NCBI GenBank assembly: GCA_031270805.1
Contig: JAISWK010000089.1
Span: 18,235-82,234 of the forward strand
Length of the DNA stretch: 64,000 nt
DNA from: Gracilibacteraceae bacterium
Lineage (GTDB): Bacteria > Bacillota > Desulfitobacteriia > Desulfitobacteriales > Syntrophobotulaceae
Reading direction: 5' to 3'
Shown: one piece after another, positions 11,503-64,000 of the stretch
How the letters are laid out: every line of letters begins with the position of its first letter
Position numbering within the stretch: position 1 is the first letter of the stretch
The notes under the pieces: generated by a model
What the model was told of the DNA's origin: nothing
The model's input: the letters and a program-made list of their open reading frames with translations, nothing else
Database searches by the model: none
Made by a program: the position numbers and the translations under genes

Positions 11503-11856
11503 GGGGGCGTTTCAGATTCGCTCGGGAGAGCGGCGGCAAACGCAGCGTGCCGAGATGCCGTCTGACCTCGTTAAACAGACGGAAAATTTTTAATTGCCAA
11601 TAACGAATACGCCTTAGCCGCGTAAAGCGGCTACATCCCGCCTTTGTTACCTGTGACGAAGGAGTTGGGGTGCAAAAAGATCAGGTTGCCCGAATTAGCT
11701 TCTGTTCGTAGCTACTAGGGGAGATCAATCGAACTGACTTTCGCTCTATCCTGCTTCCGGGAGCGGGCCGAAGTGAGAATAAAACGGAAGCTACGCACGT
11801 AGACGCGGTTGTGGCGGCCTTTCGATACAGGGGTGCAAGTCCCCTCGCCTCCGCCA
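11503..11856 (+). ncRNA. ssrA: tmRNA (transfer-messenger RNA)
   Basis: 5-prime GGGGGCG pairs with 3-prime CGCCUCC including a G3:U70 pair, and CCA is encoded. T-arm is AGGGG-UGCAAGU-CCCCU. Internal tag ORF at 11596..11625 is GCC AAT AAC GAA TAC GCC TTA GCC GCG TAA (ANNEYALAA-stop). A TATAAT box sits at 11487..11492. Confidence 0.92.
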
Positions 11857-41417: not shown

Positions 41418-41813
41418 ATGTCACTCGAACACGAACACGAACACGAGCACCTGCACGATCATGCGCACGATGATCTGCACGAACACGCGCACCCGCACAC
41501 TCACACTCACACTCACACTCACGCTCACACACACGAACACGAGCATGCACACGCGCACGAGCATCCGCACACAGACGAAGATTTATCCCCTCCGCCAAGC
41601 GGGCAGGGCCGCGAGGCGAATGACCCGGCTCTCTCCAGGGCCTTATTGAAATATGCGGCGGATCACAACCGGCAGCATGAGGCCGAACTGAGAGAATTAG
41701 AGGACAATCTGCGCGCGCAGGGCAAGACTGCGGCGGCCGGCAAGGTGGCGGCGGCGCGTTCCGCTTTCGCCGAAGGCAACGCCAAACTGGCCGCTGCGCT
41801 GGAGGAAATTTAG
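41418..41813 (+). CDS. histidine-rich metal-binding protein with C-terminal helical domain
   Basis: MSLEHEHEHEHLHDHAHDDLHEHAHPHTHTHTHTHAHTHEHEHAHAHEHPH then a predicted helical/coiled region (RQHEAELRELEDNLRAQGK...). Stop is 2 nt before the CooT ATG. Confidence 0.7.
   Translation: MSLEHEHEHEHLHDHAHDDLHEHAHPHTHTHTHTHAHTHEHEHAHAHEHPHTDEDLSPPPSGQGREANDPALSRALLKYAADHNRQHEAELRELEDNLRAQGKTAAAGKVAAARSAFAEGNAKLAAALEEI
41496..41519 (+). repeat. (CACACT)x4 hexanucleotide repeat inside the His-rich gene (encodes HTHTHTHT)
   Basis: Read directly. It is followed by degenerate CACGCT CACACA units. Confidence 0.9.
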
Positions 41814-48519: not shown

Positions 48520-48540
48520 AATGGCCCTCGCCGCCCGGCG

Positions 48541-48564
48541 CAACCGCAACCGCAACCGCAACCG
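48541..48564. repeat. (CAACCG)x4 tandem hexamer in the radical-SAM/MopB-2 spacer
   Basis: caaccgcaaccgcaaccgcaaccg read directly. It lies 22-45 nt upstream of the MopB-2 ATG. Confidence 0.9.
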
Positions 48565-48602
48565 CAGGAGTACGCCTGACGCCTCCGCGGCGTCCTCTTG
48601 TC

Positions 48603-49955
48603 TCAAGGCTCAACTCTCAGCCTGTTCCCCTCCGCATCGGTCAAATGGTAGAGGCAGAACGGCACTAAGCGCCCGTCGCGGCTCATCACCACCATGCTGC
48701 ATTCGCGGGTTTTCTGCAAATCCAGGTTATAACAGTCCATATAGTTCATCACCACTATGGCCAGCCCCGCCCGATGGCGCGGAAAACGCCGCCGGGCGAT
48801 GTCCGCCAGCACGGAACCCTGCGGGCTCTGGGGGTCGAAGGCCGCCAGATAGTCCGCTTCCGTAATCAGGCGCGTCAAGGGCGTCGGTTTGCCGCCTCTG
48901 GACAGCAGGTAGGTGGAAGAAGTGCAGAGGGGGTGCGAGCAGCCCAGAGACCAAAAGTCGCCGGGTTCGAGCAGCCCGCCGCTCTGCGCCGCCAGCAGCC
49001 GAATTACGTCGCCCTGGGTCAGCCTTTTTTGCCTGCGGGCGTCGAAGCGCCGAAATTCCGCCGGGGCGCCGCTTTGACCGACCTGGAACCGCCCGGAACC
49101 GAAGGCCGGTTGATAAGCGACGCCGGCCACAATATCCCGGTTGTCCAGGGCGAAGCGCAAGACGTCGCCGATCTGGCTCTCATTCACCCCTTCGATTATA
49201 GTCATAGCCAGGCAAATTTGCAAGCCGGCCCGGCGGCAATTGTCCAGCACGGCGAGCTTATCGGCCAAAAGCGCCGTCCCCCGCGTTTTTTGGAACACCG
49301 CGTCCGTCACGCCGTCAAATTGCAGGTAAATCCCGGTGGCCCCCGCCTCCGCCAGCGCCGCCGCGTAAGCCTCGTCCCGGGCGAGGGCGAGGCCGTTCGT
49401 GTTGATCTCGATGAACTCGAAGCCCACGGAGCGCCCCAGGCGGATGATTGCCGGCAAGTCGGGCCGGATGGTCGGCTCGCCGCCCGTCACCTGAATGGCG
49501 GTCTGGGGAGTCGTCGCCTGCATAATGTGTTCAAAGGTCCGGCCCAGTTCCTCCAGGGTCGGATCCGGCGGCGCCTCGCCCCGGCGTTCTTCTGCCGACA
49601 TGAAACAGACGGGGCAGCGCAGGTTGCACCGCTCCGTCACCTCGATTTCCACCAAGGTCGCCCGCCGGGCGTGGCGGGCGCAGAAGCCGCAGTCCAGTGG
49701 ACAGCCCCGCTTCGCCGCCGAGCGGAAAAAACGGGGCGGGGCAGGGGGCAGACGCAACGAATTCATTCGGAGAAAACTATCTTTGTCCGGCCAAAGACAG
49801 GATTCCGTCCGGCCGTGCTCCGGGCAGTCCTTGACCAGCCATACTTCGTTGCCCTGCGCCTCCACCCGGGCGGGGCTGCTTTTCAGGCAAAAGGGACAGA
49901 GCGCTTCCGTCGGCCAGAGGAGTTCCCCGTTCCCGGCCAAATCCGCAGGGCTCAT
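48603..49955 (-). CDS. radical SAM protein with N-terminal Cys knuckles and an additional Cx3Cx2C cluster motif
   Basis: Start is the ATG overlapping the NrfD stop (ATGA). CPFC...CPEHG, CPLDCGFC, canonical CNLRCPVC, TGGEPT. Confidence 0.8.
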   Translation of the reverse strand: MSPADLAGNGELLWPTEALCPFCLKSSPARVEAQGNEVWLVKDCPEHGRTESCLWPDKDSFLRMNSLRLPPAPPRFFRSAAKRGCPLDCGFCARHARRATLVEIEVTERCNLRCPVCFMSAEERRGEAPPDPTLEELGRTFEHIMQATTPQTAIQVTGGEPTIRPDLPAIIRLGRSVGFEFIEINTNGLALARDEAYAAALAEAGATGIYLQFDGVTDAVFQKTRGTALLADKLAVLDNCRRAGLQICLAMTIIEGVNESQIGDVLRFALDNRDIVAGVAYQPAFGSGRFQVGQSGAPAEFRRFDARRQKRLTQGDVIRLLAAQSGGLLEPGDFWSLGCSHPLCTSSTYLLSRGGKPTPLTRLITEADYLAAFDPQSPQGSVLADIARRRFPRHRAGLAIVVMNYMDCYNLDLQKTRECSMVVMSRDGRLVPFCLYHLTDAEGNRLRVEP

Positions 49956-50875
49956 TTCCCGGCGCGGATAAAGGCTTCGTCGCCGATCGGCAGACGCGAG
50001 CGGAACAATTGCTCGCCGGGCAGGAAGGTGCGGTTCTCGCCCCCTTTGATCACCCAAAGACGCATCAGCGCGCCGCCGCCCAGAGCGAGCAGGGCGCCGC
50101 CAACCTGCAGAGCCGGGGCGCTCAGCCCCACGAGCAGACCCGGCAGCACCATGCCGCCCGCGAGGAACAGCCCGAAGCCCGGGGCCAAATCGCCCTTGGC
50201 CCAGCGCTCCGCCGCCGCGACCTCATGCTCCGTGCCGGTGCTGCGCTTCACATAGACATAGGCGACCCAGAGGACGGCTTGGAGCAGGAGCAGGAGGGCC
50301 GTGCCGACAGCGAGCGGCTGAACTAGGGCCTGGTTCGGGGCGGGCAGGGCCGCGTTGCACAGCAGGTGCAGGGCTAAACCCGTCGCCAGGGAAGAAAGCA
50401 GGAACAGGGGAATTAACCCCGGCCCGTGCCAGAAAGGCCGCGCTTTGTGTCTGGCCAGCAGCACGCCCGGGTAAGCCGCGACAATGAGACCGCACAGCAC
50501 GCACAATCCCGCCACCAGCTTTTCCAGGATCGCCACCCCCGCCCAGGGGAAGATGGGGAAGGCGAAACTGGCGAGGACAAAGCCCAGCCCCGCCGTCAGC
50601 GTCATATTCCAGGCCCCGAAGGTCAGAATGGCTTTCGGGTTGGTGAACACCCGCCAGGCCCGCAGCGGCTTGCCCAATTCCAGAATCAGAAGCAGGGCGC
50701 CGATTCCGACGCCGACCGCGCCGACCGCGCCGACCAGGGGCGAGCTGAGTCCGGGCGCCGCGAAAGTCAGCACTCCCGCTGCGGCGACCGCCGCCGCGCC
50801 CATGCCGGCAAAGAAAAAATCCGCCGCCAACATCCAGCCCCAGTTGTCGTCATGATGTTTAACAGCCACAGTCAT
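49952..50875 (-). CDS. NrfD/PsrC/DmsC-type integral membrane subunit
   Basis: 307 aa with about 8 hydrophobic helices. Starts HHDDNWGWMLAADFFFAGMGA, typical of the NrfD family. The start may be the GTG at 50869 (better RBS spacing). Confidence 0.7.
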   Translation of the reverse strand: MTVAVKHHDDNWGWMLAADFFFAGMGAAAVAAAGVLTFAAPGLSSPLVGAVGAVGVGIGALLLILELGKPLRAWRVFTNPKAILTFGAWNMTLTAGLGFVLASFAFPIFPWAGVAILEKLVAGLCVLCGLIVAAYPGVLLARHKARPFWHGPGLIPLFLLSSLATGLALHLLCNAALPAPNQALVQPLAVGTALLLLLQAVLWVAYVYVKRSTGTEHEVAAAERWAKGDLAPGFGLFLAGGMVLPGLLVGLSAPALQVGGALLALGGGALMRLWVIKGGENRTFLPGEQLFRSRLPIGDEAFIRAGK

Positions 50876-50908
50876 ATCCTCCTTGCTTGGGACTCGTTCC
50901 CCGAATCC

Positions 50909-51445
50909 TCAATTGATATAGTAGACGCCGGGCTGCGTGTTCAGCTCGCCCAAAAGCCATTGTCCGCCCTTCGCGCCGACGAGCTGCGCCACCTCGCTGG
51001 CCGGGTCGTCCAAGTCGCCGAAAGAACGGGCTTTCTGATGGCAGGTATTCACGCAATAAGGTTTTTCCCCCGCGTCCACCCGCTCCTTGCAGAAGGTACA
51101 TTTCCAGGCGACGCCGTCATGGCTGCTTCTGGCCCCGTAAGGGCAGCTCATAATGCAGGCCTTGCAGCCGACGCACATATCCTGATCCACCCAGACGATG
51201 CCGTCTTCCCGCTGCTGGGAAGCCTTCGTCGGGCAGGCGTCCACGCAGGGCGTGTTCCGGCAGTGCATACACAGAAGCGGAACGTGGGTCATGTGGACAT
51301 GGGGAAAAAGCCCCGTCACCCCGTTGGTGACCACTGGATTGTAAATCACGCTCACCGGCAGATCATTGTGTACCCGGCAGGCGACGGTGCAGCTCTGGCA
51401 GCCCACGCATTTTCCCCGGTCGATAACCATTACATACTGCGGCAC
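50909..51445 (-). CDS. 4Fe-4S dicluster-domain electron-transfer subunit (DmsB/PsrB-like, four Cys groups)
   Basis: GTG start after AAGGGGGG. CVGCQSCTVAC, CMHCRNTPCVDACP, CVGCKACIMSCP, CTFC...C..C. Confidence 0.85.
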   Translation of the reverse strand: MPQYVMVIDRGKCVGCQSCTVACRVHNDLPVSVIYNPVVTNGVTGLFPHVHMTHVPLLCMHCRNTPCVDACPTKASQQREDGIVWVDQDMCVGCKACIMSCPYGARSSHDGVAWKCTFCKERVDAGEKPYCVNTCHQKARSFGDLDDPASEVAQLVGAKGGQWLLGELNTQPGVYYIN

Positions 51446-51458
51446 TTGCTTTCCCCCC

Positions 51459-53678
51459 TTACTCCGCTTTGTAAATCCGGCACAGGAGACCGCGGTTGGC
51501 CCAGCTGCCGCCCAAGGGATCGCAGTGGGCGTCCTCGGTGCTGGTCAGGACATTGGCGTTGGACTCCAGGCAGCCGCCCAGTTCCGGCAGCCGCATATCC
51601 CGCTCCGGGAACCACCAGCCGCGCTGGGTCATCACGACCCGGGGCATGACGGCTTCGGTCAGATTGGCCTTTTGCCGGATCCGGCCCCGCCGGGTCTCGA
51701 TCCACACCCAGTCGCCGTTCTTGATCCCATAGTGTCCCGCCGTGCGCGGGTTAATGTCCGTATAAGGTTCGTGGGCCAGAAAACGGACTGACGGCAGGTT
51801 AAAATGTTCCGAGTGGTGGTAGGGCATGAATCCGCCGGCGGTGGTCAGCACCAGCGGAAATTCCTCCGCCAGTTCCGGATTCGCCGTCTCGCTTTCCGCC
51901 GGGGGGACATACACCGGCAGGGGAGGATAGCCCAACTGTTCCAAAATGCTGGATTTGAGCTCGACCTTGCCCGAGGGCGTGCCGAACCCGTGCTCCAGGT
52001 AACGGTTGAACTCCCGCTCCGGATAGTGGAAGCGCGGCCACTCGACAAAGGCGTCGTAGCTCTCCGAGCCGTAGAAGTTCTCCGCGAGATTGGCGATCTG
52101 GTAAAAATAGGCGTCTTCCAAAGTTTCCCACGGCCAGTGTTCCGCCTGACCCAGCCGCAGCCCGAGCAGCCGCCAGAAGTCGAAGTCCGTCTTGCGCTGA
52201 TAAAGCGGGGCAATCGCCCGCTGCGACGCCACCAGGGCGTCGGAGACGCCGTAATTTGTGTGGACGGACGGGCGTTCCATCGAACCGGCAATCGGCAGCA
52301 CATAATCCGCCAGCATGGCGGTCGGGGTCAGAAAATAATCGCAGCAGGTCATGAACTCCACTTTTTCCAGCGCCGCCAGCACTTCCCGGCTGTTGCCGTA
52401 AGAATTGACCGGATTGGTGGCCGAAACCAGGAGGGCCCGCACCTGGTAGGGCTTGCCGCTCAGGATGGCCCGGTAAACCGACGGCGGGTGGGCCTCGCAC
52501 ATCCATTCGGCGGTCGGCGCCTTGCCCCAGAACTTCTTCGACTGCTCGGCGATCAGCGTGTAGCCCGGCCAGGTGGTCAGTTTGTATTTATCCGCCCCCA
52601 GCTGCTTGCCTTTCTGTTCTTCCGGCAAAAGGTCGTTGGCTTCCATTTCCTCGTCGGTCAGGTAGTCCTGGGCCGGGCCGGTCAGGATGTCGGCTCCGGG
52701 CCCGTCCAGGTTGCCGGTCAAGGCCCGGAGGATGGCGCGGGCGTGCATACATTCGCCGGCGGGAGGGCCCTGCTGATCCACTGCCGGCGCCCACTGGATA
52801 TTGCCCGGGGTATTGGCGGCGTACATGCGCGCCCCGGCCCGAATCTGCTCCGGGTCCAGCCAGGTCAGCTCCGCCGCCCATTCCGGCGTGAAATCCTTCA
52901 CATGCTTGCGCAACTCTTTGAAGCCTTCGCAGTAATTTTTGACAAAATCGGCGTTGTGCAGTTTCTCCGTAATGATGACATTGATCCAGGCCAGCGCCAG
53001 GGCCAGGTCGGAACCGGGCCGGATCGGCAGCCACAGGTCGGCCTTGGCGGCGCTCTCCGTGTAGCGGGGGTCGATGACGATGACTTTCAGGCCATTCTCC
53101 CGCTGCAGGTTGGTAAAACCGGCCTGGGCCGGCATACTGGAGGCGCCGGGATTCTGGCCCCACAGCACGATACAGCGCGCCTGGCCCACGTCGATCTCAA
53201 AAGGGCACCAGCCATAAACGGTCATTTCCACCATAAAAGTAGGAATCCAGCACAAATGAGCGTTATGGAAACTGTTCGGGCTGCCGAAAGCGTTCATAAA
53301 ACGCCGCCGGGCCCAATCGTCCGTGCGCAGGGTGCCGCCCGCCGTCGCCACCGCTTCGGCGCCGGATTCGGCCCTGATCTGCTCCAGCTTCGCGCCGATT
53401 TCGTCAATCGCCTGCTCCCAGGAAATGGATTCCCACTGGCCGCTGCCCTTGGGCCCGATCCGTTTGAGCGGGTGGTTGACCCTGTCCGGGTGGTGCAGGT
53501 GCTGAAGCTGCAAGTTGCCGCGGCAGCAAAGACCGCCGCTTGAAGCCGGGTGATCCGGGTCGCCTTCAAACCGCAGCAGTTCCCCGTCCTTGACGTAGGC
53601 GAGTACGCCGCAGTTATTATGACAGAAGTAGCAGCAACATTTCCGCACTTCCACGCCGGCTTCCGATTCGTTGCTCAT
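51459..53678 (-). CDS. molybdopterin (bis-PGD) oxidoreductase catalytic subunit, acetylene-hydratase/transhydroxylase-like clade, no Tat signal (MopB-1)
   Basis: Start trimmed to the ATG after GGGGGAG (MSNESEAGVEVRKCCCYFCHNNCG). Blocks RRFMNAFGSPNS, FLTPTAMLADYVLPIAG, GTPSGKVELKSSILEQLGYPPLP, RGWWFPE. Confidence 0.82.
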   Translation of the reverse strand: MSNESEAGVEVRKCCCYFCHNNCGVLAYVKDGELLRFEGDPDHPASSGGLCCRGNLQLQHLHHPDRVNHPLKRIGPKGSGQWESISWEQAIDEIGAKLEQIRAESGAEAVATAGGTLRTDDWARRRFMNAFGSPNSFHNAHLCWIPTFMVEMTVYGWCPFEIDVGQARCIVLWGQNPGASSMPAQAGFTNLQRENGLKVIVIDPRYTESAAKADLWLPIRPGSDLALALAWINVIITEKLHNADFVKNYCEGFKELRKHVKDFTPEWAAELTWLDPEQIRAGARMYAANTPGNIQWAPAVDQQGPPAGECMHARAILRALTGNLDGPGADILTGPAQDYLTDEEMEANDLLPEEQKGKQLGADKYKLTTWPGYTLIAEQSKKFWGKAPTAEWMCEAHPPSVYRAILSGKPYQVRALLVSATNPVNSYGNSREVLAALEKVEFMTCCDYFLTPTAMLADYVLPIAGSMERPSVHTNYGVSDALVASQRAIAPLYQRKTDFDFWRLLGLRLGQAEHWPWETLEDAYFYQIANLAENFYGSESYDAFVEWPRFHYPEREFNRYLEHGFGTPSGKVELKSSILEQLGYPPLPVYVPPAESETANPELAEEFPLVLTTAGGFMPYHHSEHFNLPSVRFLAHEPYTDINPRTAGHYGIKNGDWVWIETRRGRIRQKANLTEAVMPRVVMTQRGWWFPERDMRLPELGGCLESNANVLTSTEDAHCDPLGGSWANRGLLCRIYKAE

Positions 53679-53803
53679 TGGACTCCCCCTTTTTTCCCTG
53701 CTTTCCTTTTCGCGCCCTCTGCGGGCCGCGACCGCCTCACTTGCTTTGATTTTACCGCAACAGCGCGTCCCAGGCAAGCAGGTCTTTCACATTATACTTT
53801 CAA

Positions 53804-56270: not shown

Positions 56271-56435
56271 CTAAGGAACTGTCCTCAAATAACTTATACA
56301 TTTGACTTGCCCTTTTGCACCCTGGCTGCGTTGCCAGAACCCACAAATACAGCCAGTATTAGCGGAACCTGGCGCCTTGCCAGAGCACAAAATTGCTGCG
56401 TCAACTGCACAAGTTATTTATCAACAGTTCCTAAG
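56271..56435. repeat. 165-bp element bounded by 25-nt imperfect inverted repeats (MITE-like or large terminator structure)
   Basis: ctaaggaactgtcctcaaataactt pairs with aagttatttatcaacagttcctaag (20 of 25 complementary). The interior has two similar hairpins, ctggc-tgcgtt-gccag and ctggc-gcctt-gccag. Confidence 0.5.
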
Positions 56436-56502
56436 CGAGTCAAAAAATAGCGAAATAAGTCGAATCTCGTCGTGCGATAGTCACGAAGAATATTAAAAAC
56501 CC

Positions 56503-56531
56503 TTGACAATGCCGCAAACAAAGCCTACAAG
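56503..56531 (+). promoter_or_regulatory. promoter P1: TTGACA-17-TACAAG with A/T-rich UP-like stretch
   Basis: ttgaca atgccgcaaacaaagcc tacaag. Confidence 0.5.
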
Positions 56532-56582
56532 AAAAAGTCGAATCTCGTCGAGGGAAAGTCATGAGGAATATTTAAAAAACTC

Positions 56583-56611
56583 TTGACAACGGCGCGAGCA
56601 AAGACTACAAT
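56583..56611 (+). promoter_or_regulatory. promoter P2: TTGACA-17-TACAAT with A/T-rich UP-like stretch
   Basis: ttgaca acggcgcgagcaaagac tacaat. Confidence 0.6.
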
Positions 56612-56617
56612 GAAAAT

Positions 56618-56961
56618 GTAGCGTACCCGAGAGTGAACGGACTGACACCGGCCTCCGCAAGGAGGAAAATGGGACTGAGCCGGGTAAAACAAAACAAAGC
56701 TTAACCGGACGAAAGCCCAAGAACGAGCCGGCCATAGGCGGCAAAACAGGAAGAAACCGAATATAAGCAACTTTCGAGCTGACGGATCTAAAAGCAAGCG
56801 CTCATGAACGTCAGCCTGAGGCGGGGATCCGCTTCACGGGGCCGGCAGGGAAACCGGACGGCCTAACATTATTGTAAGAAAGTCAGCATCGTCCGACGCA
56901 ACTGCGCGCTGGGCGGGTGAATGCAACACACCTGATTTTCTTACGAAAACAGGTGTTTTTT
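56618..56961 (+). ncRNA. candidate structured non-coding RNA or long terminated leader (class unknown)
   Basis: Bounded by P2 and an intrinsic terminator, with no credible ORF. Hand-found stems include cctcc-GCAA-ggagg (56652..56665), gctgacg/cgtcagc (56778..56815), gcgg-ggat-ccgc and ggccgg...ccggacggcc. Confidence 0.45.
56928..56961 (+). terminator. rho-independent terminator
   Basis: acacctg(a)ttttc-ttac-gaaaacaggtgt followed by TTTTT. Confidence 0.75.
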
Positions 56962-57187
56962 GTTCTGTGGGGCAAGGGAAGGAGTGAGCGAATGAGTCTG
57001 AGTTTGAGACGCTGCGCCGTATGGCGCCCTCCGTAGCCCGCCGGATTGCTATCCGCGGTGTGCATGTTTTAAGGGGGTCGGAGGCGAGGAAATGAGGCGG
57101 CCGGTCTTGCTGCTGATTCCGCCGGACGCCGCGCGCTTCGTTCCCCGCAATGACAGTGAATCGGATGCAATGCAATGTACGTTGTGC

Positions 57188-57280
57188 GTATGTGGATTCT
57201 GCGACGGAGGCGCGACCCCCGGTAATGGAACCGGCGCGCCTCCGCGCAGGCAGTTCGGCTTGGGCGGCTCGGAGACTCGC
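57188..57280. repeat. mosaic intergenic repeat, family B copy 1 (62-nt core plus 29-nt module)
   Basis: The 62-nt core is 57 of 62 identical to 59750..59811. The 29-mer at 57252..57280 is the exact reverse complement of 59914..59942. Confidence 0.85.
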
Positions 57281-57326
57281 CGGGAGCCTGTTGCACTCGT
57301 TTTTTCTCGGAAAGGAGAAAAAAAAC

Positions 57327-59690
57327 ATGAAATTCCATTCCCAAAGAATCCACCGGCGCCGCAGGGTGGCGCTACTGACGGCGATACTGCTCTTTATCGG
57401 ACTGTTCGCCGTCCTGACCGTACCGGTGCTGGCCACTCCCGGCGCCTACACCGTCACATTCGCGGTCACCAACACCACGGTACAGGTTAACGGCTCCACC
57501 ACGCTGACCGCCACCTCGGACAGCAGCGGCGTCCTTAACTTCAACACCACGCCGGCGACGAACTACGCCGTATCCGTGGCGTCAATCGCCATCACCCCGT
57601 CGTCAGGTACTACGGACGCCGTAGTCCTCAAGACCGGGCCCAACGCCTTCCAGCTGCAGGCGGTCGACCAGGCAGTCACCTTAACGATTGTCGCCGACCC
57701 GCCCTTTACCGGCCAGACGACGGCCGGCGGCTACGCCATCAATAACGAGACTCAACTCCTGGCGTTAGCGACGGCTGTCAACGGCAGCACCGATCCTATC
57801 GCCCTCCCCGGCTATACCTTCACCTTGACGGACGATATCGCGCTCTCCGACCCCTGGACGCCCATCGGCGGGGCCGGCGGCGTCAGCGGGACAGTCCCGA
57901 GCAGCAACGGCTTTGCCGGCATCTTTGACGGACAGGACTTCACGATCAGCGAGCTTGATCTCAACCCGACCATCACCGGCAGCACGAACAACACAGGCTA
58001 CGGCCTGTTCGGTTTCGTGAACGGCGGCACGGTCGGCAACCTCACGGTCAGCGGCGAGATCATAATAGACGATACCAGCGTAGCGCAGGACATCGGCGGC
58101 GTCGTCGGCTACACCAACGGCAGTCTGTACAACCTGACGAGCGATGTCACAATCAGCGTTGGCAAAGAGTGCTCCAATGTCGGCGGGGTAGTGGGCGCGA
58201 TGGAGAACTTAACCACGCCGATCACCGCCCGCTACCTGGCCAATGTGGCTCAAATCCTGGCCGGCGGCCACGTCGGCGGCGTCATCGGCGGCATGTATTC
58301 CGGCCCGGGCAACCTTAACACCATCGACCGCTGCTTCAACACCGCAATGGTCGCAGGCCTCCAGCAAAGCAAGACCTATGTCGGCGGCGTCGTGGGTTAC
58401 GCCTGCGCCGCCATCACGAACACTTACAACACCGGCGAGATCCTGGTGGCCGGCGGCGACAATATTAAGTGCTACCTCGGCGGGATCACCGGTATCCTCG
58501 TTCACTATAGCACGCCCCGTTCCAGCCTGGCCAACTCCTACAGTACGTCCGGCTTCGTGGGCTATATGACCGATTACGCCCAGTATCTCTACGCCTCGGC
58601 GGACAACGACAGCACGACGCCGATCACGAACAGCTATTGGGTGGTGCCTTCTGCCGGCGCGCTCGGTTACGACCAGGCCGTCTTCGGCACGCACACCGAT
58701 GTGTCGGCTCAGGCTGCGTCCGCCCTGACCCCGACCCTGCTGGGCAGCGCCTTTACCGGCAGCGCCCCGGCAACCCTGGACTGGAGCGGCGCCTATACGG
58801 ATCTTCAGACCGGCACGCCTACCCCGCCCGCCGACACAGACGACCTGAACATGATATTCTTGGATGGCACGGCCACGGTAAACGGGACCGGCACGAAGGG
58901 AGACCCCTATAACAGCCTGACCAGCGCCCTCGGCGACCTTACCGCTACGCGGCCGGTCGTCTATATCCTCGGGAAACTGACGATCAGCGCCACGACCAAT
59001 ATTGATTCCTCCACCCTGCCGATCGGCAACGCCGTGATCACACGCAGCTGCTCGTACACCGGCGACCTCTTTGACGTGACCGGCGGTACCCTGACCCTGG
59101 GCGACGTCACGGTGCACGGCAACAGCGCCAATGTCGCCAATGCCAGCGGCGCTTTGGTCTGGATCGACGGCGGCTCGCTCGTCGTGGGCCCCGGGGCGAC
59201 CCTGCAAAAAAATGACACTCAGACCAACGGCGGCGCTATTCATATCTTCAACGGCGACGCGACCCTTGACGGTGGCCAGATCTCCAGCAACGAGGCCAAG
59301 ATCGGCGGCGCGGTCTATATTGACAGCGACGGCGTCTTTACCCTCAAGGACGGCGAGGTGGGCAACAATATCGCCGACCGCTACGCCCCCGGCATCTATG
59401 TGACCGCCAGCGGCACGGTGGTGCTTGATCCGGGCAACGCCACCACCTTAAGCATTGCGGGCGGTAACCCGATTTATCTGCCCTCGGGCGTATCCTTCAA
59501 TATCGATTCCTCTCTGGGAAGTCTGACCAATTCTGTACCGGTCGCCTTTGCCAGCCCGGCGAAATTTGACAGCGTCGCCTTCGTGGCCAACCCCTCTTAC
59601 ATTGGCGCGAGCAGAGCAAAGTTAGCGGCCCCGCAGGTTACTCTCGATGATGACGGCGATACGGAAATCTATATTGATTCGGTGCCGTAA
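57327..59690 (+). CDS. large secreted/surface protein with GLUG-like (GGVVGY) repeats and C-terminal beta-helix-like repeats
   Basis: ATG 9 nt after AAAGGAG. Signal-like N-terminus MKFHSQRIHRRRRVALLTAILLFIGLFAVLTVPVLA. Repeats IGGVVGYTNG, VGGVVGA, VGGVIGG, VGGVVGYA and GGAIHIFNGDATLDGGQISSNEAKIGGAVYI. Confidence 0.75.
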   Translation: MKFHSQRIHRRRRVALLTAILLFIGLFAVLTVPVLATPGAYTVTFAVTNTTVQVNGSTTLTATSDSSGVLNFNTTPATNYAVSVASIAITPSSGTTDAVVLKTGPNAFQLQAVDQAVTLTIVADPPFTGQTTAGGYAINNETQLLALATAVNGSTDPIALPGYTFTLTDDIALSDPWTPIGGAGGVSGTVPSSNGFAGIFDGQDFTISELDLNPTITGSTNNTGYGLFGFVNGGTVGNLTVSGEIIIDDTSVAQDIGGVVGYTNGSLYNLTSDVTISVGKECSNVGGVVGAMENLTTPITARYLANVAQILAGGHVGGVIGGMYSGPGNLNTIDRCFNTAMVAGLQQSKTYVGGVVGYACAAITNTYNTGEILVAGGDNIKCYLGGITGILVHYSTPRSSLANSYSTSGFVGYMTDYAQYLYASADNDSTTPITNSYWVVPSAGALGYDQAVFGTHTDVSAQAASALTPTLLGSAFTGSAPATLDWSGAYTDLQTGTPTPPADTDDLNMIFLDGTATVNGTGTKGDPYNSLTSALGDLTATRPVVYILGKLTISATTNIDSSTLPIGNAVITRSCSYTGDLFDVTGGTLTLGDVTVHGNSANVANASGALVWIDGGSLVVGPGATLQKNDTQTNGGAIHIFNGDATLDGGQISSNEAKIGGAVYIDSDGVFTLKDGEVGNNIADRYAPGIYVTASGTVVLDPGNATTLSIAGGNPIYLPSGVSFNIDSSLGSLTNSVPVAFASPAKFDSVAFVANPSYIGASRAKLAAPQVTLDDDGDTEIYIDSVP

Positions 59691-59740: not shown

Positions 59741-59749
59741 ATTGTGTAA

Positions 59750-60077
59750 GTATGTGGATTCTGCGACGGAGGCGTGACACCCGGTAATGACGCCGGCGCG
59801 CCTCCGCGCAGAATGACAATAAGAAAGACTATTGTCATTCTGCGCAAGCCGCCGACAGGCGGCGCAGTCGCAGAATCCACCCAGAAACGGGCGGATTGCG
59901 AGAGACTTACCCAGCGAGTCTCCGAGCCGCCCAAGCCGAACTACCATCCGCCCCTACGAAGAAACAGAGGCGCCCCGCAAGGGCGTGGAGACGCCCCCAC
60001 AAGGGCGTAGTAGGGGACGATGGCAATCGTCCCGCGTCTCCCGAAAAACGGGCGGATTACCATCCACCCCTACGAAG
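59750..60077. repeat. mosaic intergenic repeat, family B copy 2 plus nested units and hairpins
   Basis: Core at 59750..59811. Perfect 14-bp inverted repeat gtggattctgcgac / gtcgcagaatccac (59754..59767 and 59867..59880). Perfect 15-bp hairpin at 59806..59845. The unit aaacgggcggatt+accatccRcccctacgaag occurs intact at 60046..60077 and split by 45 nt at 59885..59961. Confidence 0.85.
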
Positions 60078-60096: not shown

Positions 60097-63000
60097 ATGG
60101 GCATTTACTTCGCCGGATCAATGAAAAACAGCCGCCTGATGGCCGTACTCCTGATCGCGGTCATGATTCTTGGTTTCTTCGTCCTGCCGGATTTCTCGGC
60201 GGGCGCGGTCGCCGATGATGTCGTGAGTCTCACCTTGACATTGAGTGAGAGGAACATAACAGTCGGTGGTAACACAGTTGGATTAGAATTTGATAAGACC
60301 GTGTTTTCTTTCGATTCCCTGGATACAAGCGTGTCCGAAGGTCGATGCACGGCGGAGTTTCGTGCCGAGACAGATCTTGGTTTTGAATATCGGGTTTACG
60401 CAGTCGGCGAGACTTTAAGAGAAGCAGGCGTTCCAGTTGTTGTTATCAATCTGAAAATAAACCCCGATGCGCCCCCGGGTGATTATACCATACTTACGAC
60501 CAAAGTGCCCAAAGGGCCGCAACTATCCGACCCGACCCCCTCCGTTATAACGGTGGAGGCCGGCGGCATTGACGTGGTCGCAGACTACGGCGGCCGCATC
60601 CGCAAAGGAGCGGACGGCGGCTACAACGTGGCGGTGGACAGCGACAAGCTGGGCGACGGCGATAAGGCGGGCTATGTGATCGACCAACTCTTTGTGGACG
60701 GGCAGGCCATCCCCGCCGCCTCAGGACAAACCTCATTCCAGGTGACGGCGGACGACGCGCCGACAAGGAGTATTGTCGCTCTCTTTGAGTACACGGTAAA
60801 TTTTAATTCCCCGCTTAACGGCACGCTCTCCGTTAAGCGGGGGGATACCGAACTTACGAGCGGAGATATTGTGCGCGGCGGCGAGGTGCTGACAGTCGAG
60901 GCCGTCGCGGATTCGGGTTATATCGCGGAGCTGCAATGTACGGGACTGACCCCCGCCGGCGACTCCGGCCAATATATTGTGACCGCGCTGCGCGGCGAAC
61001 CGGCGCCGGAAATCGGGGCCACGTTCTTCCCCCTCGGCAGTCTGTACAGCATCAGCTCCGACACCGTGGTACACGGCGTCCTGGGCCACCCCGCCCAGGC
61101 GGTGGTCGGGGCCGCCGTCACAGTGACGGCCCAGCCCAATTTTGGTTTTTACCTTGAAGACGGCAGCCTGGTCTACCGGGTCGGCGCGGACAGCGAAGCC
61201 TTCTTATTGACCGCCACCGCCACTCCGGCCGGGTATGAATTTGTCATGCCCGGGGACAGCGTGACCCTCTCCGCCGTCTTTTTGCCCATCGCCCGCACTA
61301 TCAGCGTGGACTGCCAACCGGCGCGCGGTTCCGTCGTCGTCAGCCGGGACACGGCGCCGGTGGGCGAGACGATCAGCCTGACGATTCAGCCTGATCCGGG
61401 CTATGTGACGGCGGGACTCGTCGTCAGGGGCGATGAGAGCCTGGCACCCGTCCCGCTGGCGGACAAGGGTTCCGGCGGCTATGAGTTTGTCATGCCGGCC
61501 GAGCCGGTCACCGTGAGCCTCGGTTTTGTCTACACCGTAGGCCAGCCGCCCCTCGGCGCGGACGGATTTTATCAGATCAGCACGGCGGAGCATTTCCTTT
61601 GGTTCGCCCGGACCGTGAACGACGGCGACGGCGGCATTAACGCCGTGCTGCTGAATGATTTGGATTTAACGCAGCTTCAGCCTTTTACCACCATCGGCGG
61701 CCAGTATGCGGCCTTTTCCAATACGCCCTTCAGCGGCACTTTTGACGGGGCCGGCCATACGCTGACTGTTGACATCGACCTGTCCTTTGAACCTGAGCCT
61801 CAGCGCCAGGACTACCACACCGTCGGAGTGTTCGGCTTCATCGGGCTGGGGGGAGTCGTCCGGGATTTGCATGTCGAAGGCAGCGTGAAGGGCCGGGCCT
61901 CCTACGTCGGCGGTATTGTCGGCTATCTCCAGGGCGGCGACATTATAGGCTGTACCTTCAGCGGTACGGTCACGAGCGAAGAAATCCCCTCGGGCAGCGG
62001 AAGTTGGCTGGCGGGCGGCATCGTTGCTAGTGTTAGTGCGGCGAACACCGGCGATCTTTCGGCGAATAGAGACGCTACCATCACCGATTGTTCCGTCAGC
62101 GGTGCGATCTGCGGCAGCGGCACCGGCAGCGGCGGCATAATTGGCCAGGCTATTGGCAACGGAACTTTCGATCTTAGCACAATTGTCAGCGGCTGCGTCA
62201 ACGAGGCGGATGTTTTCGGCGCCAGCGTTCGTGTGGGCGGCATCGTCGGCTATGCAAGCGATACAAAAATTATTGATTGCCGCAATGTCGGAACGATACA
62301 GGGGGCATCCAGCTTCGTTGGCGGCATCGTGGGTTACACCATGGGCGCTGATGAGATCAAGGATTGCGTGAACAGCGGCGCGGTGTCCGGTAGGAGTACA
62401 GTGGGCGGTATCGCGGGCCAGATGGGGGGCACCGGCTCCCTCAGCGCCTGCGTCAACAGCGGCCCTGTCGAGGCTGCCGCGGCTGACGCTGGCGGGATCG
62501 CCGGCCTTTTCGGCAGCCCCGGCTACTTGACCGGCTGCCTGAACACCGGCGCCGTCACGGCGACGCAGACCAGAGCCGGCGGTATCACCGGCTCTGTGGA
62601 CGCCGGCAAGCTTGAGGGCAATTACAACGGCGGCCCGGTCGCTCTGAACGCCGGGGCCGGGAGCGGCATCAGCTTTGTGGGCGGCATCGTTGGCTACTTC
62701 GATGGCTATGGGTTCAACTGGACCTATTCCCACTACGGCAGCCTGACGGGGAGCTACAATACCGGCCCGGTCGTCTACACGCTGGAGGGTGAGGACGTCA
62801 GCGAGAATGTGGGGCCGGTGGCGGGCGCCTATAACGATGAGAATAAGTCATATATTGCGGATAATTACTACGCCCCGGACGACGGGGCGGAGCATTGGGG
62901 CGCGGCGGCGGTGTCGGGAACCAACCTCAACGCGGCGCTGGCAATCCTCGAGAGCGTCAGCGACGAGGAAATCCGCTACAATGAAGGCGGCTACCCTGTA

Positions 63001-63999
63001 CCGCTCTCTCTCTGGGACGGGCGCGGCAGCGCGGTTGAGGGCGAACAGCCGGCCGCCCCTCTGCCGGTGCTTGTGACCTTCAACCTCGTTCCCACGAACG
63101 CCGGGGTGGTGGTCATAGGCGCCGACGACGCGGTCTTGCCGCCGGTAAGCGGACGCTCCTATCGCCTGACGCAGGGCGAGACCTATGCTTATAATATCAG
63201 CGCCGACGGCTACGAGACAGTCAGCGGCACGCTGGTTCCGGAGGCCGCCGAAACCATCGCGATCGGCTTGAAGCCGCTTTCGGCCGGGCAGTATGTACCC
63301 GGCTGGGATAAATGGCGGCCCTCCTTCGGCGTCTATCTTCTCTCCCGCGACGGCAAGAGCGGGACGCAGCTCGGCAACTGGAACTATGACGAGGCGCAGG
63401 GAACCTATGTAGGGCCGGATAGCGCCGCGCCTGATTTTATCGAAACCTTCTCCAGCCCCTATATCTACTCCGGTAACGACAACCTGCCGGGGGCCCGCCT
63501 GGGCGTGGTGCTGCGCGGCATACCCGCGTCGGAGCTGATCGCCTGGTATAACGGGCATAACGGCGCCGCCCCCGACGTCACGGCCGACAACTACCGGGAC
63601 TACGACGTCAAGCTCGGGACCAACTCCACATCCAGCGAGAATCCTTATGCCAGCAACGATCCGACGAAGCCCGGCCAGTGGGCTTGGCCGGGGGCGTTCG
63701 ACCAGTTCAGCGGCACATTACGCTACTACTACCCGGACTTCCTCACCGGCGCGAACAGCGGCTCCGCCATCACGACCAAGCTGCTGGGGGCGGGTGAATT
63801 GAGGGATTCCGTCATCGCGGTTCAGAGCTACAACGACCGGGTGAACCGGCTGCCTGAAGCCGTCGTCGGCGCCAACCTGCAGATCGACAATAAGAGCGAG
63901 CTGGACGCGGCGATTGCCTACATGGTGGGAGCGGCGGACACGGAACGGGCCCTCCGCAATTTTGAGGGCATGGCGCCGGGCGAGGACGGCCGGCTGAAC
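60097..63999 (+). CDS. very large secreted/surface protein with GLUG-like repeats, 3-prime end outside window (not in ORF track because it stays open)
   Basis: ATG after GAGAGGAAAAAAA. MGIYFAGSMKNSRLMAVLLIAVMILGFFVLP (signal/TM). The frame was checked stop-free at 17 sampled 60-nt stretches through to the window end. Repeats VGGIVGY (five copies), GGIAG and CVNSG. Confidence 0.75.
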   Translation, partial: MGIYFAGSMKNSRLMAVLLIAVMILGFFVLPDFSAGAVADDVVSLTLTLSERNITVGGNTVGLEFDKTVFSFDSLDTSVSEGRCTAEFRAETDLGFEYRVYAVGETLREAGVPVVVINLKINPDAPPGDYTILTTKVPKGPQLSDPTPSVITVEAGGIDVVADYGGRIRKGADGGYNVAVDSDKLGDGDKAGYVIDQLFVDGQAIPAASGQTSFQVTADDAPTRSIVALFEYTVNFNSPLNGTLSVKRGDTELTSGDIVRGGEVLTVEAVADSGYIAELQCTGLTPAGDSGQYIVTALRGEPAPEIGATFFPLGSLYSISSDTVVHGVLGHPAQAVVGAAVTVTAQPNFGFYLEDGSLVYRVGADSEAFLLTATATPAGYEFVMPGDSVTLSAVFLPIARTISVDCQPARGSVVVSRDTAPVGETISLTIQPDPGYVTAGLVVRGDESLAPVPLADKGSGGYEFVMPAEPVTVSLGFVYTVGQPPLGADGFYQISTAEHFLWFARTVNDGDGGINAVLLNDLDLTQLQPFTTIGGQYAAFSNTPFSGTFDGAGHTLTVDIDLSFEPEPQRQDYHTVGVFGFIGLGGVVRDLHVEGSVKGRASYVGGIVGYLQGGDIIGCTFSGTVTSEEIPSGSGSWLAGGIVASVSAANTGDLSANRDATITDCSVSGAICGSGTGSGGIIGQAIGNGTFDLSTIVSGCVNEADVFGASVRVGGIVGYASDTKIIDCRNVGTIQGASSFVGGIVGYTMGADEIKDCVNSGAVSGRSTVGGIAGQMGGTGSLSACVNSGPVEAAAADAGGIAGLFGSPGYLTGCLNTGAVTATQTRAGGITGSVDAGKLEGNYNGGPVALNAGAGSGISFVGGIVGYFDGYGFNWTYSHYGSLTGSYNTGPVVYTLEGEDVSENVGPVAGAYNDENKSYIADNYYAPDDGAEHWGAAAVSGTNLNAALAILESVSDEEIRYNEGGYPVPLSLWDGRGSAVEGEQPAAPLPVLVTFNLVPTNAGVVVIGADDAVLPPVSGRSYRLTQGETYAYNISADGYETVSGTLVPEAAETIAIGLKPLSAGQYVPGWDKWRPSFGVYLLSRDGKSGTQLGNWNYDEAQGTYVGPDSAAPDFIETFSSPYIYSGNDNLPGARLGVVLRGIPASELIAWYNGHNGAAPDVTADNYRDYDVKLGTNSTSSENPYASNDPTKPGQWAWPGAFDQFSGTLRYYYPDFLTGANSGSAITTKLLGAGELRDSVIAVQSYNDRVNRLPEAVVGANLQIDNKSELDAAIAYMVGAADTERALRNFEGMAPGEDGRLN

Positions 64000-64000
64000 A

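What the first reader, a model, noticed from the sequence alone, without database searches (positions are those of the whole stretch)
56457..56961. Duplicated near-consensus promoter module driving a roughly 340-nt terminated RNA of unknown class
A 78-bp unit is present twice in tandem. Each unit contains aagtcgaatctcgtcg, an A/T-rich UP-like tract, TTGACA, a 17-nt spacer and TACAAG or TACAAT, a layout reminiscent of rRNA-type P1/P2 promoters. From P2 the transcript would run about 340 nt to a clean intrinsic terminator at 56928..56961. The interval has no credible ORF and is rich in hairpins, including a GNRA-capped cctcc-GCAA-ggagg stem. It lies 365 nt upstream of the first giant surface-protein gene. 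I could not match it by eye to RNase P, SRP, 6S, tmRNA or the common riboswitch cores. It may be a stand-alone structured ncRNA or an unusually long terminated leader.
Basis: seen in the sequence. Interest (0 to 1): 0.62.

Follow-up and report, generated by a model that had tools for sequence, protein, structure and literature searches.

The report
Molybdenum-cofactor riboswitch before surface-protein genes
The "unknown" 340-nt RNA is a known molybdenum-cofactor (Moco) riboswitch with a built-in transcription stop signal, but it sits, unusually, in the long leader of a surface-protein operon instead of in front of molybdenum genes.

Summary
An ~80-bp promoter module is duplicated in tandem (83% identical). 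P2 is TTGACA-17-TACAAT (11/12). An intrinsic terminator ends at 56961, 365 nt before the first surface-protein gene.

The interpretation "RNA of unknown class" does not hold. Positions 56760-56897 (+) match Rfam RF01055, the Moco/tungsten-cofactor riboswitch, at 55 bits (gathering 36, E 2e-10). All five stems are present, with the GAAA tetraloop and the P3 stem typical of Moco-type members. The 3' strand of P1 (56869-56886) can instead pair with the 5' arm of the terminator (56932-56949). That is a classical ligand-OFF termination switch.

The context is what is unusual. No Moco gene follows, and no other sigma-70-like promoter lies in the spacer. The next gene (57327) encodes a secreted two-beta-helix protein, followed by a giant GLUG protein. 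Homologues of this gene pair elsewhere are preceded by a sub-threshold Moco-like motif behind a far-upstream promoter (L033), by riboswitch-moeA (L028), or by tungsten-cofactor genes (L027). The closest homologue (L025) has none.

Best reading: a Moco-gated long leader of the surface-protein operon, probably inherited from a Moco-gene neighbourhood. It could also be an orphan relic. No transcript data or close relatives were available. This is a new member of a known kind, of moderate interest.

The parts
56454..56535 (+). Promoter module copy 1 (P1). 16-mer 56457-56472, A/T tract about 56488-56499, -35 TTGACA 56503-56508, -10 TACAAG 56526-56531. The -10 lacks the final T, so P1 is probably weak.
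   Evidence: not listed by the promoter scan
56532..56617 (+). Promoter module copy 2 (P2). 16-mer 56535-56550, A-tract, -35 TTGACA 56583-56588, -10 TACAAT 56606-56611. Predicted start about 56617-56619.
   Evidence: (11/12 matches)
56618..56769 (+). A-rich 5' leader of about 150 nt before the aptamer. It contains the CCUCC-GCAA-GGAGG hairpin (56652-56665) and an 11-codon mini-ORF (56669-56704). No family match and a weak fold signal.
   Evidence: no hit at E<=10; z -1.44; AT skew +0.39 to +0.47
56760..56897 (+). Moco riboswitch aptamer (RF01055). P1 56770-56775/56878-56883; P2 56778-56784/56809-56815 with a CUAA/AUG receptor-like bulge; P3 56817-56824/56829-56836; P4 56839-56844/56859-56864 capped by GAAA 56850-56853; P5 56866-56868/56873-56875.
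   Evidence: 55 bits, E 1.9e-10 in the whole-window search, 3.6e-12 in the local one; MFE equals centroid equals the canonical fold, z -4.23
56869..56949 (+). Antiterminator. 56869-56886 (P5 3' side plus P1 3' strand) pairs with 56932-56949 (terminator 5' arm and loop). It excludes both P1 and the terminator.
   Evidence: I2: 18 nt, 83% complementary; present in the MFE of the full transcript; -74.0 against -79.2 kcal/mol for the terminator state
56925..56961 (+). Intrinsic terminator: stem 56925-56938/56946-56959 with a 7-nt loop, and U-tract 56956-56961.
   Evidence: (I4)
56962..57326 (+). 365-nt spacer, the read-through part of the leader. No sigma-70-like promoter at >=8/12. It contains mini-ORF 56992-57036 with an AGGAG Shine-Dalgarno, repeat elements A (57183-57249) and B (57249-57284), and the RBS AAGGAG at 57312-57317.
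   Evidence: no moeA remnant
57327..59690 (+). Gene 1, the presumed regulated gene. A 787-aa secreted protein: signal/TM helix, Ig-like domain and two beta-helix domains.
   Evidence: (P0121 is 100% identical, so this start is the called one); no Pfam, NCBIfam or PDB sequence hit
60097..64000 (+). Gene 2, a giant GLUG / Flg_new_2 surface protein that runs off the window. It forms a conserved pair with gene 1.

Best explanation
The RNA is a molybdenum-cofactor (Moco) riboswitch of the P3-containing type with a transcription-termination expression platform. It lies inside a roughly 716-nt leader that runs from tandem promoters to the first surface-protein gene.

Proposed mechanism:
1. RNA polymerase starts at P2 (about 56618). 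It may also start, more weakly, 80 nt upstream at the duplicated P1.
2. It transcribes a 150-nt A-rich leader and then the aptamer (56760-56897).
3. If Moco is bound, P1 (56770-56775/56878-56883) is held shut. The terminator hairpin (56925-56959) forms and transcription ends in the U-tract at 56961. This gives the roughly 340-nt RNA (about 420 nt from P1).
4. If Moco is scarce, 56869-56886 pairs with 56932-56949, so the terminator cannot form. The polymerase then reads through the 365-nt spacer into gene 1 (57327) and possibly gene 2.

Shown: the family match, the five-stem fold, the mutually exclusive terminator and antiterminator pairings, the promoter matches, and the absence of another recognisable promoter.

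Inferred: that the promoters fire, that the ligand is Moco, that read-through reaches gene 1, and that the arrangement descends from a 'Moco riboswitch - Moco gene - surface gene' neighbourhood like that of L028.
For: Identity of the RNA:
- RF01055 hit at 55 bits against gathering 36, full-length model 1-135.
- The aptamer alone folds (MFE equals centroid) into P1-P5, z -4.23.
- GAAA tetraloop on P4, CUAA/AUG receptor positions in P2, and P3 present. These are the features described by Regulski et al. 2008 (PMC2408646).

Expression platform:
- Terminator and antiterminator helices are found independently (I2 and I4).
- The two states are nearly isoenergetic: -79.2 against -74.0 kcal/mol. The antiterminator is the MFE of the whole transcript.

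Link to gene 1:
- P2 matches the consensus at 11/12.
- No sigma-70-like site at >=8/12 lies between the terminator and gene 1.

Recurrence at homologous loci (the gene1+gene2 pair is conserved):
- L033: an 11/12 promoter (TTGACA-17-TACAAT) lies about 694 nt upstream of the homologue. An RF01055 hit (26.7 bits, E 5e-4 in the local search, 0.03 in 51 kb) lies 191 nt upstream, with no gene between.
- L028: promoter, then an RF01055 hit (35.8 bits), then moeA, then the homologue. No promoter or terminator was detected in between.
- L027: AFOR, cysteine desulfurase and MoeB/ThiF lie directly upstream of the homologue.
- Two distant GLUG controls have no Moco motif.

Neighbourhood: two molybdopterin oxidoreductase genes lie 3-10 kb upstream in the window.
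Against: - The downstream gene has no recognisable link to Moco. It is a beta-helix, adhesin-like secreted protein.
- The closest homologue, L025 (52% identity, 864 nt of upstream sequence), has no Moco motif. L029, L030 and L034 have none either.
- The L033 motif is below Rfam's gathering score and lacks the inner P1, so it may be a decaying relic rather than a maintained sensor.
- L028 has no terminator-like site after its aptamer, and the 3' strand of its P1 reads AAGGAGA (my reading: an RBS-sequestering platform). The window has a terminator platform, so simple deletion of moeA does not explain the window. No moeA remnant is present.
- The aptamer departs from the consensus at conserved 3' positions: CCUAAC...GU-AAGAAAG against CCUCCC...GGAAAGGaG.
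- The promoter scans are simple consensus matches, so a non-sigma-70 or weak promoter in the spacer cannot be excluded.
- No RNA-seq run holds this DNA.
- No close relatives exist for a covariation test.
Confidence: 0.55

Rival explanations
1. Orphan or relic riboswitch. The promoters, aptamer and terminator are what is left of a Moco-gene operon, such as riboswitch-moeA as in L028, whose coding part was lost or moved. The element still makes a terminated RNA but controls nothing of consequence. Gene 1 is expressed from its own, unrecognised promoter in the spacer, for example in the element A shared by both surface-gene upstream regions.
For: - No Moco gene lies downstream.
- L028 and L027 show Moco/W-cofactor genes at the corresponding position.
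- The L033 motif is degenerate, as expected for decay.
- L025 lacks the motif.
- Gene 2 also lacks a good sigma-70 match upstream yet follows a strong hairpin after gene 1. The scans therefore probably miss whatever promoter these genes use. Element A (57183-57249 and 59745-59811) is shared by both upstream regions.
Against: - The aptamer (55 bits), antiterminator, terminator and an 11/12 promoter are all intact, which is unexpected for an unselected remnant unless the loss was recent.
- No pseudogene trace of moeA or other L027/L028 genes is in the spacer.
- The far-upstream promoter with a long leader recurs in L033.
Confidence: 0.28
2. Stand-alone riboswitch-derived small RNA. The abundant 340-nt terminated product (leader plus aptamer) acts in trans, by base-pairing or by binding and buffering Moco. 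This would resemble the terminated SAM riboswitches SreA/SreB of Listeria (comparison from my own knowledge).
For: - A near-consensus promoter with an A-tract, a 150-nt extra 5' leader not needed for the aptamer, and a clean terminator would give a discrete, abundant RNA.
- The whole transcript folds better than shuffles (z -4.10).
Against: - The leader alone shows no significant structure (z -1.44) and no family match.
- No conservation could be shown: neither the 16-mer nor the leader was found elsewhere.
- No target is known.
- The fold signal of the whole RNA is explained by the aptamer and platform.
Confidence: 0.07
3. One reading: a structured ncRNA of a new, unknown class driven by rRNA-like tandem promoters.
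For: - Only the 150-nt leader remains unassigned.
- The tandem promoter layout is real.
Against: - A full-length RF01055 match well above threshold explains the structured part and the terminator.
- P1's -10 is defective, there is no G+C-rich discriminator, and no rRNA follows.
Confidence: 0.03

Closest known systems
Moco RNA motif / Moco-Tuco riboswitch (Rfam RF01055; Regulski et al. 2008, PMC2408646)
   Same: - Five-stem aptamer with a GAAA tetraloop on P4, a receptor-like bulge in P2, and P3 present (Moco type).
- An intrinsic-terminator expression platform, which is one of the two platform types described for the family.
- Found in Clostridia.
- Ligand-OFF logic.
   Different: - The gene immediately downstream is not a Moco biosynthesis, molybdate transport or Moco-enzyme gene. 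It is a secreted beta-helix surface protein, 365 nt after the terminator.
- A 150-nt leader precedes the aptamer.
- The 3' conserved tract and P5 are variant (CCUAAC...GU against CCUCCC...GG).
E. coli moaABCDE leader (two transcription starts, S1 and S2, 87 nt apart, upstream of the Moco RNA; PMC2408646)
   Same: Two promoters about 80-90 nt apart feed one Moco riboswitch.
   Different: - In E. coli the promoters are distinct (ModE- and FNR-dependent) and control is translational, with the RBS inside P1.
- Here the two promoters are copies of one module and P1 is probably weak.
- No ModE- or FNR-like site was recognised.
- Control here is by termination.
Syntrophomonas wolfei triple Moco/Tuco RNA arrangement (PMC2408646)
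   Same: Terminators follow the aptamers, and a long gap separates the last element from the first ORF.
   Different: - Those RNAs lack P3 and precede MPT-synthesis and transport genes.
- The window has only one aptamer that Rfam detects.
- L033 may have a second structured element, but it does not match RF01055.
Riboswitches that end in non-coding products or act in trans: SAM riboswitches SreA/SreB; B12 riboswitch-controlled EutX/Rli55 (my own knowledge). Antisense-acting riboswitches, among which Moco is over-represented (PMC9943018).
   Same: A riboswitch whose terminated product, or whose read-through into non-cognate sequence, may be the functional output.
   Different: - There is no evidence here for a trans target.
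- There is no antisense gene: all downstream genes are on the same strand.
Long 5' leaders and multiple promoters of S-layer / abundant surface-protein genes (for example Lactobacillus slpA; my own knowledge)
   Same: - Strong, sometimes tandem, promoters far upstream of a surface-protein gene.
- L027 also has two TG-extended promoters, and L033 an 11/12 promoter about 694 nt upstream.
   Different: I know of no such leader that contains a metabolite riboswitch. A search of the held full-text library for riboswitch + molybdenum cofactor + surface protein gave nine papers, none on this topic.

Membership tests
Moco/Tuco riboswitch (RF01055) | Covariance-model score at or above Rfam's gathering threshold over the full model | tested here: met
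   55.0 bits against 36, model positions 1-135 of 135, E 1.9e-10 (window) and 3.6e-12 (local)
Moco/Tuco riboswitch (RF01055) | Five base-paired elements P1-P5 around a multi-stem junction | tested here: met
   The CM alignment and an independent MFE/centroid fold of 56765-56890 give the same P1-P5, z -4.23
Moco/Tuco riboswitch (RF01055) | GNRA (GAAA) tetraloop at the tip of P4 and a tetraloop receptor in the P2 bulge | tested here: met
   GAAA at 56850-56853. CUAA (56788-56791) and AUG (56804-56806) align to the consensus receptor positions. The tertiary contact itself cannot be tested.
Moco/Tuco riboswitch (RF01055) | P3 stem present (Moco type) or absent (Tuco type) | tested here: met
   8-bp P3 at 56817-56824/56829-56836, so Moco type by the rule of PMC2408646
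Moco/Tuco riboswitch (RF01055) | Conserved junction nucleotides | tested here: inconclusive
   CGAGC, GCC, GGG and GAAA are kept. The 3' tract reads CCUAAC-AUUAUU-GU-AAGAAAG against the consensus CCUCCC-gUauUU-GG-AAAGGaG, with one non-canonical pair flagged in P5. The alternative 3-bp P5 ACA/UGU is possible.
Moco/Tuco riboswitch (RF01055) | Expression platform coupled to P1 (RBS sequestration or intrinsic terminator) | tested here: met
   The terminator (56925-56961) and an antiterminator that uses the P1 3' strand are mutually exclusive
Moco/Tuco riboswitch (RF01055) | Located upstream of Moco biosynthesis, molybdate/tungstate transport or Moco-enzyme genes | tested here: not met
   The next genes are surface proteins. 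Molybdopterin oxidoreductases are nearby but upstream and on the opposite strand. The related locus L028 does have moeA after its riboswitch.
Moco/Tuco riboswitch (RF01055) | Gene control responds to cellular Moco | not testable with these tools
   Needs reporter genetics as in PMC2408646. No RNA-seq run holds this DNA.
rRNA-type tandem P1/P2 promoters with UP element | Two functional near-consensus promoters in tandem | tested here: inconclusive
   P2 matches at 11/12. P1's -10 TACAAG lacks the final T and fails the scan.
rRNA-type tandem P1/P2 promoters with UP element | G+C-rich discriminator after the -10 and an rRNA operon downstream | tested here: not met
   The sequence after the -10 is GAAAATG (P2) or AAAAAGT (P1). 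No rRNA hit in the window.
Trans-acting riboswitch-derived sRNA (SreA-like) | The terminated riboswitch transcript accumulates and base-pairs with a target mRNA | not testable with these tools
   No transcript data. No conserved seed could be defined, because no relatives were found.

The most novel reading that the evidence does not exclude
In a lineage of Oscillospiraceae-like Clostridia, Moco availability controls a conserved cell-surface operon: a secreted two-beta-helix protein plus a giant GLUG/SLH protein. Control is through a Moco riboswitch embedded in a roughly 700-nt leader. This would extend the Moco riboswitch regulon beyond cofactor metabolism to cell-surface remodelling under Moco starvation. 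The degenerate L033 element and the riboswitch-moeA-surface arrangement of L028 would be variants of the same circuit.
Probability: 0.3. Interest if true: 0.6.

Novelty: new member of a known kind. Interest (0 to 1): 0.36.

Why it matters
It settles the finding: the structured RNA is a known riboswitch class, not a new one.

What remains of interest is the wiring. Moco riboswitches are described upstream of genes that make, transport or use the cofactor. Here an intact one, fed by the only recognisable promoter, gates read-through toward a conserved pair of surface-protein genes. Moco-related motifs or genes recur at the same position in three other contigs.

If the link is functional, it would be a rare case of a cofactor riboswitch controlling cell-envelope proteins. 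If it is a relic, the set L028 - window - L033 is a small natural series. It runs from an aptamer with its gene, to an intact aptamer without a gene, to a degenerate aptamer, and shows how a riboswitch can be stranded and decay after losing its operon.

Tried and rejected
- **Locating the window's own genome.** Exact look-ups of gene 1, UvrB and the AKR protein returned nothing. The contig is only known to be 85,931 nt long and held by NCBI and JGI.
- **Close relatives through flanking genes.**
  - The N-acetyltransferase gave at most 40% identity over most of its length in 185k species genomes (one 66-residue segment reached 55%).
  - The best non-self AKR hit was about 60% identical.
  - Locus-level covariation was therefore impossible.
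- **Metagenome scan for the promoter module** (16-mer + N26-36 + TTGACA): 0 hits. The 16-mer is absent from the relatives' promoter regions. A regulon or operator role for the 16-mer could not be supported.
- **Metagenome scan with the surface-protein alignment:** only two weak GLUG loci, which served as negative controls.
- **RNA evidence:** no SRA run holds the region, tested with 1.1-kb and 10-kb queries.
- **Relic of moeA in the spacer:** tblastn found nothing, even at E<=10.
- **A second aptamer in the window's leader or spacer:** no RF01055 hit at E<=10. My by-eye resemblance of the leader's CCGAG...GCCUCC to a collapsed aptamer is unverified.
- **L033 element 1 (about 1091-1222) as a Moco variant.**
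  - It shares the 12-mer TCACGGGGCCGG with the window aptamer and has a multi-stem fold plus a terminator.
  - Rfam gives no RF01055 hit, even in a 251-nt search, so I do not count it as Moco.
- **My own single-sequence covariance model (R1):** it failed to find even the Rfam-detected L028 and L033 aptamers, so I discarded it. MAFFT misaligned the four elements.
- **One constrained fold** used a mis-registered P1 (-66.6 kcal/mol) and is disregarded.
- **Mini-ORFs at 56669 and 56992 as leader peptides:** the first has a 3-nt SD-AUG spacing, and neither could be tested for conservation. Not pursued.

Full report
**1. Observation**

The stretch 56454-56617 holds two copies of an ~80-bp unit in tandem. 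Start-to-start spacing is 78-80 nt. 68 of 82 positions are identical, with one 2-nt indel.

Each copy carries:
- the 16-mer AAGTCGAATCTCGTCG, which occurs exactly twice in the 64-kb window;
- an A/T tract;
- TTGACA, a 17-nt spacer, and TACAAG (copy 1) or TACAAT (copy 2).

The promoter scan lists only copy 2 (P2, 11/12 matches), with 2 sites found against 0.4 expected. Copy 1 fails because its -10 lacks the final T, so P1 is probably weak or a decayed duplicate. At 83% overall identity a perfect run of 16-19 nt is not in itself significant (my estimate). I therefore do not claim that the 16-mer is an operator. It was not found in metagenome contigs next to a TTGACA, nor in the relatives' promoter regions.

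The terminator is real. Its arms are 56925-56938 and 56946-56959, followed by six T at 56956-56961. The RNA from P2 would be about 340 nt, and the first surface-protein ATG (57327) lies 365 nt further on. The gene 1 start is confirmed, because the database's own copy of the protein has the same 787 residues. The region is noncoding: the only sizeable ORF across it has GC3 0.51, against 0.70-0.79 in the neighbouring genes. The plus strand is strongly A-over-T skewed.

**2. What it is**

Rfam places a full-length Moco/tungsten-cofactor riboswitch aptamer (RF01055) at 56760-56897 on the plus strand. The score is 55.0 bits against a gathering score of 36, with E 1.9e-10 in the whole-window search and 3.6e-12 in the local one.

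The aptamer alone folds into the family's P1-P5 architecture, with MFE equal to centroid and z -4.23. It has the GAAA tetraloop on P4, the CUAA/AUG receptor positions in the P2 bulge, and an 8-bp P3. According to Regulski et al. 2008, P3 marks Moco-sensing rather than tungsten-cofactor-sensing members (PMC2408646).

The 3' conserved tract is variant: CCUAAC...GU-AAGAAAG against CCUCCC...GG-AAAGGaG. P1 (ACUUUC/GAAAGU) and a 3-bp P5 are kept by compensating changes.

Positions 56869-56886 include the 3' strand of P1. They are complementary to 56932-56949, which is the 5' arm and loop of the terminator (I2). This antiterminator is the minimum-energy fold of the whole P2 transcript. The P1-plus-terminator state is the minimum for 56765-56968, at -79.2 kcal/mol against -74.0 for the forced antiterminator. 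Two nearly isoenergetic, mutually exclusive folds hinged on P1 are the standard design of a ligand-OFF termination riboswitch.

It has no significant fold signal (z -1.44).

**3. What it controls**

Nothing related to Moco follows.
- The spacer 56962-57326 has no moeA remnant.
- It has no sigma-70-like promoter, even at 8/12.
- It carries a repeat that is also found between gene 1 and gene 2.

Gene 1 has no Pfam, NCBIfam or PDB sequence match. Its model (pLDDT 76.6) shows a signal/TM helix, an Ig-like domain and two beta-helix domains. The nearest solved folds are a GLUG-type 'IgA1 protease-like' beta-helix and Antigen 43. Gene 2 is a giant GLUG/Flg_new_2 protein.

Upstream, on the opposite strand, lie two molybdopterin oxidoreductase genes with Fe-S, NrfD-like membrane and radical-SAM partners. 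So the organism uses Moco, and the neighbourhood is Mo-related.

**4. Related loci**

No close relative of this genome could be found. Homologues of gene 1 at 31-52% identity come from JGI/NCBI metagenome contigs. The gene1+gene2 pair is conserved in most of them.

| Locus | What lies upstream of the gene 1 homologue |
|---|---|
| L033 (Oscillospiraceae MAG) | A single 11/12 promoter (TTGACA-17-TACAAT) about 694 nt upstream, compared with 716 nt for P2 in the window. An RF01055 hit 191 nt upstream (26.7 bits, E 5e-4 local, 0.03 in 51 kb; inner P1 missing). No gene in between. |
| L028 | Promoter, then an RF01055 hit (35.8 bits, just under threshold), then moeA, then 309 nt, then the homologue. 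No promoter or terminator detected in between. |
| L027 | Aldehyde:ferredoxin oxidoreductase (AFOR), a cysteine desulfurase and MoeB/ThiF end 570-620 nt upstream of the homologue. Two TG-extended promoters and a short terminated leader, but no Moco RNA. |
| L025 (closest, 52%) | No motif in the 864 nt available. |
| L026 | No motif in the 292 nt available. |
| L029, L030, L034 | No motif. |
| L031, L032 (distant GLUG controls) | No motif. |

Two co-oriented Moco hits directly upstream of homologues, in about 91 kb of scanned sequence, plus the window itself, is far more than the few copies per genome expected (my estimate). The loci are not independent, however, if the arrangement is inherited.

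**5. Explanation**

Most likely (about 0.55): the duplicated promoter, the riboswitch and the spacer form one long leader of the surface-protein operon. Moco-replete cells terminate at 56961 and make the 340-nt RNA. Moco-poor cells read through into gene 1. The arrangement plausibly descends from a 'riboswitch - Moco gene - surface genes' neighbourhood such as L028.

Main rival (about 0.28): the element is a stranded relic, and gene 1 uses a promoter that the scans miss. In favour of this rival:
- gene 2 also lacks a detectable promoter;
- element A is shared by both upstream regions;
- the L033 motif looks decayed;
- L025 has none.

Against a simple deletion origin: the L028 aptamer has no terminator-like site after it and the 3' strand of its P1 reads AAGGAGA (my reading: an RBS-sequestering platform), whereas the window uses a terminator. 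The window's spacer also holds no pseudogene trace.

A trans-acting, riboswitch-derived sRNA (about 0.07) and a new RNA class (about 0.03) have little support.

**6. Comparison and novelty**

The element passes the structural membership tests for RF01055. It fails only the contextual one, a Moco-related downstream gene. Ligand response cannot be tested here.

Two points of comparison come from Regulski et al. 2008:
- the E. coli moa leader also has two starts 87 nt apart ahead of its Moco RNA;
- S. wolfei has terminator-type Moco RNAs with a long gap before the first ORF.

A full-text search for riboswitch, molybdenum cofactor and surface protein found no paper on a Moco riboswitch ahead of surface-protein genes.

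Verdict: a new member of a known kind in an atypical context. Interest is moderate (0.36). It would rise to about 0.6 if Moco-dependent control of the surface operon were shown.

Noticed in passing
window 57183-57284 and 59745-59945: A repeat is shared by the upstream regions of both surface-protein genes. Element A (67 nt, a strong hairpin CGGAGGCGCG...CGCGCCUCCG) is direct, at 90% identity. Element B (36 nt) is inverted between the two sites, at 94%. A partial inverted A' at 59860-59880 flanks an 85-nt segment together with 59754-59774. The repeat is absent from the rest of the window. It could be a REP-like element, an RNA-stability or processing hairpin, or an inverton-like switch.
   Followed up: partly
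window 56271-56435: A long imperfect hairpin directly after the N-acetyltransferase stop codon and before the promoter module. It has 36-nt arms, 78% complementary, with 93 nt between them and an internal 26-nt direct repeat (56328/56374). Fold z is -3.56. It has no credible Rfam match (only a chance-level hit far below threshold). It could be a terminator or insulator, or a MITE-like insertion.
   Followed up: partly
window 56669-56704 and 56992-57036: Two mini-ORFs lie in the leader. MGLSRVKQNKA sits right after the CCUCC-GCAA-GGAGG hairpin, with only 3 nt between the Shine-Dalgarno and the AUG. MSLSLRRCAVWRPP has a good AGGAG Shine-Dalgarno and starts 31 nt after the terminator. Conservation could not be tested.
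   Followed up: no
L033 1091-1313: A structured element lies between the promoter and the sub-threshold Moco hit. It has a closing helix GUUCCUCC/GGAGAAC, four hairpins (z -4.5), the 12-mer TCACGGGGCCGG shared with the window aptamer, and a terminator (1262-1300 plus a U-rich tail) with a possible antiterminator. It does not match RF01055 or any other Rfam family. It may be a diverged aptamer or an unknown leader element.
   Followed up: partly
L027 5472-5719: The gene 1 homologue in L027 also has two near-consensus, TG-extended promoters (TTGACA-17-TAGAAT and TTGACA-17-TAAGAT) 219 nt apart, with a terminator-like hairpin (5575-5594) between them. Its RBS 15-mer is identical to the window's (GGAAAGGAGAAAAAA). 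Tandem promoters with a short terminated leader may be a general feature of this surface locus.
   Followed up: partly
window 57327-59690; L025-L034: Gene 1 belongs to an unannotated family (no Pfam or NCBIfam hit) of secreted proteins with an Ig-like domain and two beta-helix domains. Members are nearly always followed by a giant GLUG/Flg_new_2/SLH protein. This is a conserved two-gene surface module in these Clostridia.
   Followed up: partly
window 46345-53777 (minus strand): The cluster holds two DMSO-reductase-family molybdopterin oxidoreductases (753 and 772 aa), a 4Fe-4S subunit, an NrfD-like membrane subunit and a radical SAM protein. The radical SAM protein's best NCBIfam match is the (seleno)protein TrsS (382 bits, below the cutoff of 490). 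No Moco riboswitch precedes this cluster.
   Followed up: no
window 41418-41813: A histidine-rich 131-aa ORF (HEHEHEH..HTHTHTH) is built on a 12-nt periodic repeat. It lies 1.9 kb from a P-type ATPase gene on the opposite strand and is a possible metal-binding protein.
   Followed up: no
window 11503-11856: tmRNA gene (RF00023, 151 bits), lying 200 nt upstream of the ribosomal protein S12/S7 - EF-G - EF-Tu genes.
   Followed up: no
L025 187-400: A promoter, a 29-codon hydrophobic mini-gene (MINYVTYENLFAFALVIIGVIALLQDKRK) and a terminator lie upstream of the closest gene 1 homologue. They are followed by several copies of a REP-like palindrome (CATTCCGGGCTTGTCCCGGAATCC).
   Followed up: no
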